DNA from: an uncultured Acidobacteriaceae bacterium | GTDB lineage: Bacteria; Acidobacteriota; Terriglobia; Terriglobales; Acidobacteriaceae | Assembly: GCA_963814335.1 (NCBI GenBank) | Contig: CAWFCO010000005.1 | Coordinates: forward strand, 848,492 to 912,491 | Direction of reading: 5' to 3' | Length of the DNA: 64,000 nt | Shown here: positions 21,246-23,297 of the stretch, in pieces | Layout: every line of letters starts with the position of its first letter | How positions within the stretch are numbered: position 1 is the stretch's first letter | The notes under the pieces: generated by a model | Database searches by the model: none | What the model was told of the DNA's origin: nothing | The model's input: the letters and a program-made list of their open reading frames with translations, nothing else | Program-made: the position numbers and the translations under genes

Positions 21246-22199
21246 TTGCGTCGTTGTGATGGCGACTTAAATGCGATAGAAGGAAGGACCGATTTGGCAG
21301 AGCAGGAACCACAGGATGAATTGAATGAACAGGGTGTTCCACGCCCCTTGGTCCCTGTGACCTCGAACTCCGCTCAGATCGACCCTGCGCATGCGCAGGA
21401 AGCGACGCCAATGGAAGCGACTGGTACTGCACAGAGGCGTGGCATTGCGCCGTGGTGGCATACGGCCGTGTTGATTTCCGGGATTCTGCTGCTGTCCCTC
21501 ACCGGATCCAAGAGGTTGGGAATGACCAACGGCCATGGGTCCCATCGCATGGTCATGTATGGCATGACCATCGCCATGCAGCTGGTGATGCTTGGCTGGG
21601 TGTGGTTGGGAATGAAGCTGGGCAAGGTGCCGTTCCTCACTCTCTATGGAGTGCGGCGCAGAGGTGCGAAAGCATGGTTCATCGACGTCGGGATCGCACT
21701 TTTGTTCTGGTGGGTATCTCTCTTTGTACTGGGGTCTCTCAACCTGGGTTGGTTGACGGTTGACGCGGCCGTGCATCATCGTCCGCTGCCGATGCACGCG
21801 GGAAAAATGTCGGAAGTCGATCCGGCGCAGCGCCATCAGGTGCGATTGATTTCGCAACTTGCGCCGGAAGGCGGAGCGGAATTTGCAATGTGGTTTGTGC
21901 TGTGTGCGGTGGTTGGCGTGGTGGAAGAGACTGTGTTTCGCGGGTATCTGCAAAGCCAGTTCACGGCCTGGGGTGGCGGAAAAGCCGCGTACGGCGTGGT
22001 GTTTTCAGCACTCATGTTTGGAGCCGCGCACGGATACGAGGGATATCGCAGCATGGTTTTGCTCGCCGTGTTCGGAGTTTTGTTTAGCGTGCTCGTGCTG
22101 TTACGACGCAGTTTGCGATCCTGCATCTATGCGCATGCATGGCACGATTTCGTAACTGGAATCACGCTTGCGTTGCTGCGTTCTCATCACGTGTTGTGA
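21246..22199 (+). CDS. CPBP (Abi/CAAX protease-like) intramembrane metalloprotease
   Basis: EETVFRGYL, FGAAH and HAWHD motifs; multiple TM segments. Start uncertain (alternatives 21321, 21411). Confidence 0.88.
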   Translation: MRRCDGDLNAIEGRTDLAEQEPQDELNEQGVPRPLVPVTSNSAQIDPAHAQEATPMEATGTAQRRGIAPWWHTAVLISGILLLSLTGSKRLGMTNGHGSHRMVMYGMTIAMQLVMLGWVWLGMKLGKVPFLTLYGVRRRGAKAWFIDVGIALLFWWVSLFVLGSLNLGWLTVDAAVHHRPLPMHAGKMSEVDPAQRHQVRLISQLAPEGGAEFAMWFVLCAVVGVVEETVFRGYLQSQFTAWGGGKAAYGVVFSALMFGAAHGYEGYRSMVLLAVFGVLFSVLVLLRRSLRSCIYAHAWHDFVTGITLALLRSHHVL

Positions 22200-22282
22200 G
22201 TCGAACTTCGAAGAGGAGTTCGTAATCGGAAATTAGCCGCGAAAGTTGTTGCCACTTTTTCCACTTTACGTGTGTTTTTTTC

Positions 22283-22311
22283 TTGACACTGAGCAAGCAT
22301 GAATCTATACA
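22283..22311 (+). promoter_or_regulatory. sigma70-type promoter of microprotein gene
   Basis: TTGACA-N17-TATACA. Confidence 0.6.
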
Positions 22312-22373
22312 TTCCTCAACTGCAGTAAATATTGCAGTTTCGATGCAACCCATCGAAAAGGGAGAATAGGCAA

Positions 22374-22448
22374 ATGGCAACCAAGAAGAAAGCAGCCAAG
22401 AAGGCACCCGCGAAGAAGGCCGCAAAGAAAACTGCGAAGAAGAAGTAA
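22374..22448 (+). CDS. 24-aa Lys/Ala-rich histone-H1-like microprotein MATKKKAAKKAPAKKAAKKTAKKK
   Basis: AAGGGAG RBS, ATG, TAA; own promoter and terminator; 12 Lys and 8 Ala. Below the ORF-track cutoff. Confidence 0.8.
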   Translation: MATKKKAAKKAPAKKAAKKTAKKK

Positions 22449-22468
22449 CGGGTAACCATCAACAAGGC

Positions 22469-22516
22469 AACACCGAAGGGGGATGCGAAAGCATCCCCCT
22501 TAGTGTTTTTGTTTTC
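22469..22516 (+). terminator. Intrinsic terminator after microprotein gene
   Basis: AAGGGGGATGC-GAAA-GCATCCCCCTT followed by GTGTTTTTGTTTT. Confidence 0.9.
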
Positions 22517-22553
22517 GATAGACTGTAGTGAATAGGCGCATGAATAAAGGCGA

Positions 22554-23297
22554 ATGACGAGACGACGCTGGATTGCAGACAGTTGGGATGAACACACGGC
22601 GACGCTGACAGGAGCGCAGGCTGAGCACCTGGGGCGCGTGCTGCGTGCCGAGCGGGGAATGAAATCAGATGTGGTGGCGGGTGGTCGTGTCTTCCATGCA
22701 GAAGTGGACGAGGTACTACAGAACGGAGATGGAGGAATGGAGGTGCGCTTTGCCCTGCTTGAGCAAGTGGAGGCGAAGAGCGCTTTGCCCGTTACGCTGG
22801 TAATGGCGGTTTACAAGTTCGACCGGATGGAGTGGGCGATCGAAAAAGCGACGGAGCTGGGTGTTGCGGCGATTGCACCTGTGATTGCGCGGAGAAGTGA
22901 AAAGCACCTGGCACAGGCAGCGATGAAACGCGTGGATCGGTGGAGGCGTATTGCGCGCGAGGCGGCACAGCAGTCGCGTCGCAGCGATATTCCTGAAATA
23001 TTGGATCCCGTTGCTTTGAAGATCCGGGTGAAGCGCGAGAGCGATGCGGTCCGCATTGTGCTGGCGGAGCAGGAACGCGTAACCATGCTGCATGAGGTGG
23101 TGGAAGACGCCCTGCGAAGAGAAGGAAGCGCAATATCTATCGAGGTCGCGGTTGGTCCTGAAGGTGGTTGGGCCCCCGAGGAAGCGGAAGAGTTTGAAGC
23201 GAACGGATGGAAGGCCGTATCGCTTGGCTCGCGGATTCTGCGCGCGGAGACGGCGGCGATTGCTGCACTGGCAGTGACGGCATCGCTAATCGATTAG
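22554..23297 (+). CDS. rsmE: 16S rRNA m3U1498 methyltransferase RsmE
   Basis: HLGRVLR, EKATELGV, EAAQQSRR, VGPEGGW, LGSRILRAETAA. Confidence 0.96.
   Translation: MTRRRWIADSWDEHTATLTGAQAEHLGRVLRAERGMKSDVVAGGRVFHAEVDEVLQNGDGGMEVRFALLEQVEAKSALPVTLVMAVYKFDRMEWAIEKATELGVAAIAPVIARRSEKHLAQAAMKRVDRWRRIAREAAQQSRRSDIPEILDPVALKIRVKRESDAVRIVLAEQERVTMLHEVVEDALRREGSAISIEVAVGPEGGWAPEEAEEFEANGWKAVSLGSRILRAETAAIAALAVTASLID

What the first reader, a model, noticed from the sequence alone, without database searches (positions are those of the whole stretch)
22283..22516. Stand-alone 24-aa histone-H1-like microprotein gene
Seen: a complete expression unit missed by the ORF track: TTGACA-N17-TATACA promoter, a leader with two adjacent hairpins (AACTGCA/TGCAGTT and TTTCGATG/CATCGAAA), AAGGGAG RBS, MATKKKAAKKAPAKKAAKKTAKKK (12 Lys, no acidic residue) and an 11-bp GAAA-loop terminator. 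Established: AKK/PAKK repeats are the DNA-condensing tails of histone H1, mycobacterial HupB and chlamydial Hc proteins. Inference: a free-standing tail-only nucleoid, RNA or polyphosphate-binding peptide, possibly highly expressed.
Basis: partly seen in the sequence, partly recalled or inferred. Interest (0 to 1): 0.68.

Follow-up and report, generated by a model that had tools for sequence, protein, structure and literature searches.

The report
Conserved hidden lysine-rich micro-protein gene
A soil acidobacterium (Terracidiphilus) carries a real, never-annotated gene for a 24-residue peptide made of half lysine. The gene is kept across its whole order, and the peptide most likely coats RNA, ribosomes or DNA by charge, although what it binds has not been shown.

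Summary
Window 22374-22448 (+) encodes MATKKKAAKKAPAKKAAKKTAKKK. It sits in a compact unit of about 200 nt: T-run, TTGACA-N17-TATACA, two 5' hairpins, GGGAG Shine-Dalgarno and a long terminator.

The whole unit is conserved at 76-90% DNA identity in 23 of 24 same-genus genomes. Among 11 genomes with the 23-aa form, 13 of 14 variable ORF sites are synonymous third positions, and length changes are whole in-frame AKK-type units. It is therefore a protein-coding gene, not only an RNA.

The signature GGAGAATAG-N1-7-ATGGCAA occurs, usually once, in 208 of 301 genomes of the order and never in the reversed control. Similar 15-35-aa Lys/Ala ORFs occur in many other phyla. None is in a 15-billion-protein collection, Pfam, NCBIfam, Rfam or PDB.

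Function is inferred, not shown. The peptide is a +12 disordered polycation that should bind polyanions. In this genome the same Lys/Ala tails sit on uL22, RsfS, an HPF-family protein and a PolyA_pol-family enzyme, so I favour RNA or ribosomes over DNA as the main partner.

A leader-peptide role and a polyamine-substitute role were tested and not supported.

The parts
22246..22264 (+). Conserved upstream element TTGTTGCCACTTTTTCCAC, about -72 to -54 from the predicted start; function unknown (UP-like or factor site)
   Evidence: Nearly invariant in the genus alignment. Unique in the genome at up to 2 mismatches.
22275..22288 (+). T7C run followed by the -35 hexamer TTGACA (22283-22288)
   Evidence: Read. 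Invariant TTTT(T/C)TCTTGACA in 23 genus members. The same layout occurs in other genera and families.
22306..22311 (+). -10 hexamer TATACA, 17 nt after the -35
   Evidence: Read. CTATAC(A/C) is conserved. Not called by the consensus scan because it lacks the final T.
22318..22318 (+). Predicted transcription start, inferred from -10 spacing; not measured
   Evidence: Lies 7 nt after the -10, immediately before hairpin 1.
22319..22338 (+). Leader hairpin 1 (ACTGCAGT / ATTGCAGT, 8 bp) at the very 5' end of the transcript
   Evidence: Fold. Seven pairs are kept in 24 sequences, with G-U and C-G replacements at the inner pairs. It folds in the individual leaders of relatives.
22339..22357 (+). Leader hairpin 2 (TTCGATG / CATCGAA, 7 bp, 5-nt loop)
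   Evidence: Fold. Present in 22 of 23 genus leaders. L048, L051 and L053 form it from different sequences.
22358..22369 (+). Shine-Dalgarno AAGGGAG within the conserved GGAGAATAG box, left unpaired
   Evidence: Invariant in the genus. GGAGAATAG-N1-7-ATGGCAA is found in 208 of 301 genomes of the order and 0 times in the reversed control.
22374..22448 (+). Micro-gene: 24 codons plus TAA, MATKKKAAKKAPAKKAAKKTAKKK (2555 Da, about +12 net charge)
   Evidence: Translation. Codon-position variation is 1:0:13, with 13 synonymous changes and one A/T replacement. Indels are in-frame AKK(A)-type units. Physical properties.
22449..22468 (+). 3' spacer with conserved CCAAC and AAGGCAAC motifs
   Evidence: Conserved blocks in the alignments.
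22469..22515 (+). Rho-independent terminator: core 11-bp stem and GAAA loop at 22476-22501, outer AACAC/GTGTT pairs, then a T-run
   Evidence: Scan. Nine pairs carry compensatory changes across 24 genomes.
22554..23297 (+). rsmE (16S rRNA methyltransferase). It starts about 40 nt after the terminator T-run and is probably fed by read-through (inferred)
   Evidence: PF04452 at E = 2.5e-48. No promoter-like site is found between them. Synteny is kept in close relatives only.
21246..22199 (+). Upstream neighbour: CPBP / Rce1-like membrane protease (context only)
   Evidence: PF02517 at E = 1.9e-18.

Best explanation
This is a real, autonomously transcribed protein-coding micro-gene.

How the unit is built (promoter, transcript ends and expression level are inferred):
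- A dedicated promoter (T-run, TTGACA-N17-TATACA) should drive a monocistronic RNA of about 200 nt.
- Two stem-loops at the extreme 5' end and a long terminator hairpin at the 3' end are the kind that protect an mRNA.
- The strong Shine-Dalgarno and the ATG are left single-stranded.

What the product is:
- A 24-residue peptide (23 if the initiator Met is removed) made only of Lys, Ala, Thr and Pro.
- Net charge is about +12. With no hydrophobic core it must be disordered.

How it most likely works (inferred):
- It acts by non-specific electrostatic binding to cellular polyanions, like a detached basic tail.
- I think ribosomal and other RNA is the main partner in this organism, with DNA and polyphosphate as lesser partners. 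It would work as a diffusible counter-ion, condenser or chaperone rather than as a site-specific factor.
- In this genus, read-through of its terminator probably also supplies transcripts of rsmE.

My odds: real translated gene, about 0.9; polyanion binder, about 0.7; RNA or ribosome as the main partner, about 0.4.
For: Coding gene:
- The whole unit is conserved at 76-90% DNA identity in 23 of 24 same-genus genomes.
- In 11 genomes with the 23-aa form, variable ORF sites fall 1:0:13 on codon positions. Thirteen are synonymous and one is an A/T replacement. The binomial chance of 13 or more of 14 at third positions is 6e-6.
- Length varies from 15 to 29 aa within the family only by whole in-frame Lys/Ala units.
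- SD, ATG and stop are invariant.

Expression architecture:
- The fold has z = -6.65.
- The terminator has 9 covarying pairs.
- Two 5' hairpins are kept with different sequences, and the SD stays unpaired.

Gene-like distribution:
- The signature GGAGAATAG-N1-7-ATGGCAA is in 208 of 301 genomes of the order and 47 of 60 genera, usually once per genome, with none in the controls.
- Analogous units with their own promoter, SD and terminator occur in other families of the phylum and in other phyla.

Autonomy: neighbours change between lineages, and in genus g12 the downstream gene is convergent.

RNA or ribosome leaning:
- In this genome Lys/Ala tails sit on uL22 (PF00237), RsfS (PF02410), an S30AE/HPF-family protein (PF02482) and a PolyA_pol-family nucleotidyltransferase (PF01743).
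- The uL22 tail is kept across the family.
- In two lineages the gene lies directly upstream of RNA-modification genes: rsmE here and a Sua5/YrdC-family gene in family f2.
Against: - There is no transcript, ribosome-footprint or peptide evidence.
- The promoter is not called by the consensus scan.
- The sequence is low-complexity, so similarity between phyla may be convergent rather than homologous.
- Tail-bearing proteins in the same genome are circumstantial evidence for the partner. Two of the six (DUF2934 and an acidic/basic orphan) are of unknown function.
- In other phyla the same tails head HU and SWIB proteins, which are DNA-associated.
- A 24-residue peptide binds far more weakly than the long tails it resembles.
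Confidence: 0.5

Rival explanations
1. Nucleoid protein. The peptide binds chromosomal DNA like the C-terminal tail of histone H1, the mycobacterial HupB tail or chlamydial Hc proteins, and compacts or shields it.
For: The composition (49% Lys, 36% Ala, a little Pro and Thr, no Arg in the family set) matches H1-type tails. The only family-model hits, all sub-threshold, are to Hc2, a Burkholderia H1-like protein and Rv3852. In other phyla the same N-terminal tails head HU and SWIB-domain proteins.
Against: In this genome no recognised nucleoid protein carries such a tail, whereas four ribosome- or RNA-associated proteins do. RNA greatly outweighs DNA as a cellular polyanion (general knowledge). 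No curated H1-like model is met at threshold.
Confidence: 0.2
2. Dedicated small ribosomal protein with a fixed rRNA site, comparable to bTHX, bL37, bS22 or eL41.
For: Tiny, very basic, single-copy and near-universal in the order. The expression signals look strong. It is adjacent to rsmE or a Sua5/YrdC-family gene in two lineages. The ribosome of this lineage already carries a Lys/Ala tail on uL22.
Against: Length drifts from 15 to 29 aa by repeat-unit gain and loss within one family, which does not fit a fixed binding pocket. The peptide has no Arg or aromatic residues. No similarity to any PDB chain. The gene is not in a ribosomal-protein operon, and its neighbours are not conserved.
Confidence: 0.1
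3. Polyphosphate-granule partner, as described for the H1-like protein AlgP of Pseudomonas.
For: The genome has PPK1. AlgP, a Lys/Ala/Pro-repeat protein, organises polyphosphate granules (Chawla et al. 2022, cited in PMC11009631).
Against: There is no genomic link to ppk. The promoter looks housekeeping-type rather than starvation-type, which is a weak argument. Nothing specific points to polyphosphate.
Confidence: 0.07
4. Cis-acting leader ORF. Translation of 12 Lys codons in front of a terminator tunes read-through into rsmE, as a classical attenuator does.
For: The Lys-codon-rich ORF is followed by a terminator, and about 40 nt later by rsmE on the same strand with no promoter-like site between. 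Family f2 has the same layout before a Sua5/YrdC-family gene.
Against: In genus g12 (8 of 8 loci) and several other lineages the downstream gene is convergent. Consensus folding finds no alternative helix competing with the terminator. The amino-acid sequence outside the Lys residues is itself under purifying selection. The downstream genes are not lysine-related.
Confidence: 0.05
5. Non-coding small RNA in which the ORF is incidental.
For: The leader and the terminator are as conserved as the ORF. Stop codons are rare in all six frames of this low-complexity stretch, so an open frame alone proves nothing.
Against: The 1:0:13 codon-position pattern, the in-frame unit indels, and the invariant SD with optimal spacing, ATG and stop. 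No Rfam family is matched.
Confidence: 0.03

Closest known systems
Lys/Ala/Pro-rich tails of linker histone H1 and of bacterial 'H1-like' proteins (chlamydial Hc1/Hc2, Pseudomonas AlgP, mycobacterial HupB C-terminal domain, Rv3852)
   Same: The same AKK / PAKK / KAAK repeat chemistry, no acidic residues, predicted disorder, and charge-driven binding of polyanions.
   Different: Those are 100-250-residue proteins, or tails fused to a folded domain. This is a 24-residue stand-alone product with its own transcription unit. No curated model is matched at threshold. Binding has not been shown.
Very small basic ribosomal proteins (bTHX, bL37, bS22, eL41)
   Same: Size of 24-33 aa, extreme basicity, and easily missed by annotation.
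   Different: Those are Arg-rich with fixed length and sequence, and are seen in ribosome structures. This peptide is Lys/Ala-only and variable in length, and it has no PDB relative.
Lys/Ala-rich extensions of ribosome-associated proteins in the same genome (uL22, RsfS, HPF-family protein)
   Same: Near-identical repeat text (AKKAPAKKAA). DNA similarity is 88-91% over 44-48 nt. The uL22 extension is conserved across the family.
   Different: Those extensions are covalently tethered to a ribosome-binding domain, whereas the micro-protein is free. The similarity may be convergent, because codon choice is so restricted.
Stand-alone 'oligolysine' micro-genes noted by other readers of this scan (SAR11, CPR, Bdellovibrionota, DPANN, Bradyrhizobium)
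   Same: The same architecture (own promoter, structured leader, SD, terminator) and the same composition. All are unannotated.
   Different: Those are unpublished AI notes, not an established family. Homology between phyla cannot be shown for such sequences. The Acidobacteriaceae version has its own conserved GGAGAATAG box and a double 5' hairpin.

Membership tests
Bacterial histone H1-like Lys/Ala-repeat proteins (Pfam HC2 PF07382; NCBIfam NF038053 hist_H1_lk_Burk; NF050153 Rv3852_fam) | Lys/Ala/Pro low-complexity repeats without acidic residues | tested here: met
   12 Lys, 8 Ala, 2 Thr, 1 Pro, 1 Met, and no Asp or Glu.
Bacterial histone H1-like Lys/Ala-repeat proteins (Pfam HC2 PF07382; NCBIfam NF038053 hist_H1_lk_Burk; NF050153 Rv3852_fam) | Score above the curated cut-off of a family model | tested here: not met
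   The window peptide has no Pfam hit; its only NCBIfam hit is a meaningless 6-bit match to ValRS. A 29-aa relative scores 11-14 bits against cut-offs of 40-100.
Bacterial histone H1-like Lys/Ala-repeat proteins (Pfam HC2 PF07382; NCBIfam NF038053 hist_H1_lk_Burk; NF050153 Rv3852_fam) | Demonstrated DNA binding or condensation | not testable with these tools
   Needs EMSA or in-vivo localisation.
Small bacterial ribosomal proteins (bTHX, bL37, bS22) | Sequence relationship to a chain seen in a ribosome structure | tested here: not met
   phmmer against all PDB chains gave 0 hits at E <= 10.
Small bacterial ribosomal proteins (bTHX, bL37, bS22) | Fixed length and sequence across relatives | tested here: not met
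   Length is 15-29 aa within the family, changing by repeat-unit indels.
Small bacterial ribosomal proteins (bTHX, bL37, bS22) | Physical presence in purified ribosomes | not testable with these tools
   Needs gradient fractionation, mass spectrometry or cryo-EM.
Leader-peptide transcription attenuators | A regulated gene always downstream on the same strand | tested here: not met
   rsmE follows only in close relatives. The downstream gene is convergent in 8 of 8 g12 loci and in other lineages.
Leader-peptide transcription attenuators | A conserved antiterminator structure competing with the terminator | tested here: not met
   The consensus fold of 24 sequences shows the terminator and the leader hairpin, and no competing helix supported by covariation.
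Protein-coding gene (as opposed to non-coding RNA) | Substitutions concentrated at synonymous third positions, and indels in multiples of three | tested here: met
   Variable sites fall 1:0:13. All length variants are in frame.
Protein-coding gene (as opposed to non-coding RNA) | Evidence of transcription and translation | not testable with these tools
Known RNA families (Rfam 15) | Match to a covariance model | tested here: not met
   The only hit in 22000-22800 is a chance H19_3 match at E = 1.3 on the other strand.

The most novel reading that the evidence does not exclude
Acidobacteriaceae, and by analogy many other phyla, would carry a core, strongly expressed gene for a free oligolysine-type peptide. 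This would be a genetically encoded bulk polycation that coats ribosomes and other RNA, the free counterpart of the Lys/Ala tails on uL22, RsfS and HPF in this lineage. It would form a so far invisible class of abundant cell component. Three things hide it: it is below gene-caller length limits, it is masked as low complexity, and trypsin shreds it.
Probability: 0.3. Interest if true: 0.8.

Novelty: new variant of a known kind. Interest (0 to 1): 0.6.

Why it matters
- **A likely core gene is missing from the catalogues.** It appears in at least two thirds of the order's genomes, in one of the most abundant soil phyla. It is absent from every catalogue searched: 15 billion predicted proteins, Pfam, NCBIfam, Rfam and PDB.
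- **Charge balance.** If the peptide is abundant, it adds a polycation comparable in charge to several spermidine molecules per copy. That would have to be counted in models of ribosome, RNA and nucleoid electrostatics.
- **A directly testable question.** What do the widespread Lys/Ala tails of bacterial proteins bind? Here the tail exists as a free, deletable gene product.
- **A practical point.** Annotation pipelines need a rule for such genes. They also break assemblies: two relatives have contig ends inside the ORF.

Tried and rejected
- **The search for homologous proteins:** The representative-protein search and structure prediction need at least 30 aa and were not used.
- **Exact look-up of five peptide variants:** none is in the 15-billion-protein collection.
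- **Rfam on the locus:** nothing.
- **PDB sequence search:** nothing.
- **Neighbour clustering** of 92 tiny-ORF loci: no partner gene recurs beyond close relatives, and there is no ribosomal-protein operon context.
- **Regulon search** with the upstream 19-mer and the T-run/-35 context: the 19-mer is unique, and the full promoter layout is nearly so.
- **Open-frame test on the antisense and shifted frames:** uninformative, because stops are rare in every frame of this low-complexity DNA.
- **Polyamine-substitute idea:**
  - This genome lacks a Spermine_synth domain and OKR_DC_1, and its only PF02784 member is LysA.
  - It does have a pyruvoyl arginine decarboxylase.
  - Across the order, Spermine_synth-domain proteins occur in 166 of 301 genomes. 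These include 20 of 32 same-genus genomes, nearly all of which carry the micro-gene.
  - There is therefore no complementary distribution, and the idea is not supported as a substitute.
- **Literature:** six full-text searches found no description of stand-alone Lys/Ala micro-genes.

Full report
**1. What is in the sequence**

Window 22374-22448 on the plus strand reads MATKKKAAKKAPAKKAAKKTAKKK followed by TAA. The features around it, in order, are:

- a T7 run and TTGACA (22283-22288);
- a 17-nt spacer, then TATACA (22306-22311);
- two directly adjacent hairpins at 22319-22338 and 22339-22357, the first beginning one base after the predicted start;
- an unpaired AAGGGAG (22358-22364) 9 nt before the ATG;
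- the ORF, then a 20-nt spacer;
- a terminator with an 11-bp core stem and GAAA loop at 22476-22501. Outer AACAC/GTGTT pairs lengthen the stem, and a T-run follows.

The 203-nt stretch folds far better than shuffles, with z = -6.65 and 0 of 200 shuffles as good.

The consensus promoter scan does not list the promoter, because TATACA lacks the final T that the scan requires. The promoter is therefore an inference from conservation.

A scan of the whole 4.78-Mb genome for small Lys-rich ORFs without acidic residues finds this as the only Lys/Ala-type one. It is single-copy.

**2. Is it a gene?**

The 251-nt unit is found at 76-90% DNA identity in 23 of 24 same-genus genomes. In the alignment, the T-run, both promoter hexamers, the SD box, the ATG, the stop and the terminator are nearly invariant.

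Eleven genomes share the 23-aa form.

- Their ORFs differ at 14 sites, which fall 1, 0 and 13 on codon positions 1, 2 and 3.
- Thirteen changes are synonymous and one is an Ala/Thr replacement.
- The chance of 13 or more of 14 at third positions is 6e-6.

Other genomes differ by gain or loss of whole in-frame Lys/Ala units, giving 15-29 aa within the family.

Stops are rare in all six frames of this DNA, so openness alone says nothing. It is the codon-position pattern and the orientation of promoter, SD and terminator that pick out the plus-strand frame. I take this as strong evidence for a translated gene. Translation itself is not shown.

**3. RNA structure**

A consensus fold of 24 sequences recovers hairpin 1 and the terminator. 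Nine pairs keep pairing through changes on both sides.

Folding each leader alone shows the two adjacent 5' hairpins in 22 of 23 genus members.

- Three genomes (L048, L051, L053) build hairpin 2 from different sequences.
- Related genera (L074, L075) have two hairpins of unrelated sequence.
- In all, the SD and ATG stay unpaired.

A stem-loop at the extreme 5' end plus a strong 3' hairpin is the usual layout of a stable, well-translated bacterial mRNA (general knowledge). That the gene is highly expressed is an inference.

**4. Distribution**

The box GGAGAATAG-N1-7-ATGGCAA occurs in 208 of 301 genomes of the order, in 47 of 60 genera and in 31 of 32 same-genus genomes. It is usually present once, with no match to the reversed pattern.

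The sister family f2 has the same kind of unit (MAKATKKPAKKAAKKTAKKKK and MATKKPAKKAAKKPAAKKTSKKK). A second type there has a different leader (MAAKKPAKKAAKKTAKKKK).

A stringent start-of-ORF pattern hits 31 of 401 genomes across the phylum, and the reversed control hits none. The hits are 15-34-aa Lys/Ala ORFs, each with its own promoter, SD and terminator. Some are tandem pairs.

The same pattern was run over 185,579 species genomes, with output limited to 120 loci. It returns tiny ORFs of this kind in:

- Planctomycetota;
- Dormiibacterota;
- Bacteroidota;
- Verrucomicrobiota;
- Hyphomicrobiales;
- Nitrospirota;
- Methylomirabilota;
- two CPR phyla.

It also returns long H1-like proteins, and HU, SWIB and even AtpD proteins that start with such a tail.

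For sequences this simple, homology between phyla cannot be separated from convergence.

**5. Not catalogued**

- Five peptide variants are absent from a 15-billion-protein collection.
- Pfam and NCBIfam give only sub-threshold hits to Hc2, a Burkholderia H1-like protein and Rv3852, and only for a 29-aa relative.
- Rfam and PDB give nothing.
- Six full-text literature searches found no description.
- Other readers of this scan noted the orthologue in two sister genomes, and similar genes in other phyla. These are leads, not support.

**6. What it does**

The peptide weighs 2555 Da, has a net charge of about +12 and has no hydrophobic residues. It cannot fold alone, so it must act through charge.

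To ask on what, I listed every frame in this genome with a Lys/Ala-rich window and identified the proteins:

- uL22 (PF00237);
- RsfS (PF02410);
- an S30AE/HPF-family protein (PF02482);
- a PolyA_pol-family nucleotidyltransferase (PF01743);
- a DUF2934 protein;
- an acidic/basic orphan.

Four of the six are ribosome- or RNA-binding, and none is a recognised nucleoid protein. The uL22 extension of 30-70 Lys/Ala-rich residues is present across the family.

In two lineages the micro-gene sits about 40-100 nt upstream of an RNA-modification gene with no promoter-like site between. These are rsmE here and a Sua5/YrdC-family gene in f2.

RNA is also the dominant cellular polyanion. I therefore favour RNA or ribosomes as the main partner (about 0.4), then DNA (about 0.2). 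This is circumstantial.

**7. Rivals tested**

- **Leader peptide.** Not general. Downstream genes differ between lineages and are convergent in 8 of 8 g12 loci. No competing antiterminator helix appears. The non-Lys residues are themselves conserved. Local read-through into rsmE remains likely.
- **Fixed-site ribosomal protein.** Length drift, the absence of Arg and aromatic residues, and the lack of any PDB relative argue against it.
- **Polyamine substitute.**
  - This genome lacks a Spermine_synth domain and OKR_DC_1, and its only PF02784 protein is LysA.
  - It does have a pyruvoyl arginine decarboxylase.
  - Spermine_synth-domain proteins occur in 166 of 301 genomes of the order, freely together with the micro-gene.
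  - There is no complementary pattern.
- **Polyphosphate.** PPK1 is present, and AlgP is a precedent, but nothing specific links them.

**8. Verdict**

The gene is real and conserved, while the H1-like label is a resemblance and not a membership.

This is a new variant of a known kind: a Lys/Ala polyanion-binding tail existing as a free micro-protein. It is of moderate to high interest because it is near-universal in a major soil order and absent from all catalogues. Function and expression remain to be shown.

Noticed in passing
own genome G000:C5:501645-502172 (+), outside the window; relatives L213-L239: Ribosomal protein uL22 carries a 30-70-residue Lys/Ala-rich C-terminal extension (AKKTAAKKAPAKKAAAK...). 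The extension is conserved across the family Acidobacteriaceae.
   Followed up: partly
own genome: C5 around 55,990 (+); C6 around 839,560 (+); a minus-strand frame on C6 (coordinate in the plus-strand numbering not converted): RsfS, an S30AE/HPF-family protein and a PolyA_pol-family nucleotidyltransferase all end in Lys/Ala/Pro-rich tails. The nucleotidyltransferase also has a long acidic block before its tail.
   Followed up: partly
own genome C5:582981-583709 (-): Orphan protein of about 210 aa with an acidic N-terminal half and a Lys/Ala-repeat C-terminal half. It has no Pfam family. Its repeat DNA is 91% identical to the micro-ORF over 44 nt.
   Followed up: partly
window 22247-22253 and 22466-22472: A 7-nt inverted repeat (TGTTGCC / GGCAACA) brackets the whole unit, one arm upstream of the promoter and one before the terminator. 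Both arms are conserved in the genus but do not co-vary. Meaning unknown; it may be chance.
   Followed up: partly
L084, L085, L087-L089 (families f53 and f70 of the phylum): Two tiny Lys/Ala ORFs in tandem, 160-290 nt apart (for example ...TAKKK, then ...TAKKR). The first is behind a TTGACA-N16-CATAAT promoter. Each is followed by its own terminator-like hairpin.
   Followed up: partly
L054-L056, L059 (family f2): The micro-gene lies directly upstream of a Sua5/YciO/YrdC-family gene (t6A-type tRNA modification family). This mirrors the rsmE arrangement in the window.
   Followed up: partly
L158 (Anderseniella MAG); L095, L096, L114, L125, L128 and others: An ATP synthase beta-like protein, and many SWIB-domain-like proteins (judged by eye from the ...KPNAAFMKP... 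motif; not scanned against Pfam), begin with the same MAKK...AKKAAKK tail. Two HU-like proteins (L100, L183) do as well.
   Followed up: no
own genome C6 around 587,590: A run of roughly 600 A residues. It is probably an assembly artefact.
   Followed up: no
G024:C60 and C9 ends; G004:C26 and C213 ends: Contigs of two relatives end inside or next to the micro-ORF. The Lys/Ala repeat DNA seems to break short-read assemblies.
   Followed up: no
own genome, whole: There is no Spermine_synth (PF01564) domain and no OKR_DC_1 decarboxylase. The only PF02784 protein is LysA. A pyruvoyl-dependent arginine decarboxylase is present. The route to higher polyamines, if any, is unclear.
   Followed up: partly
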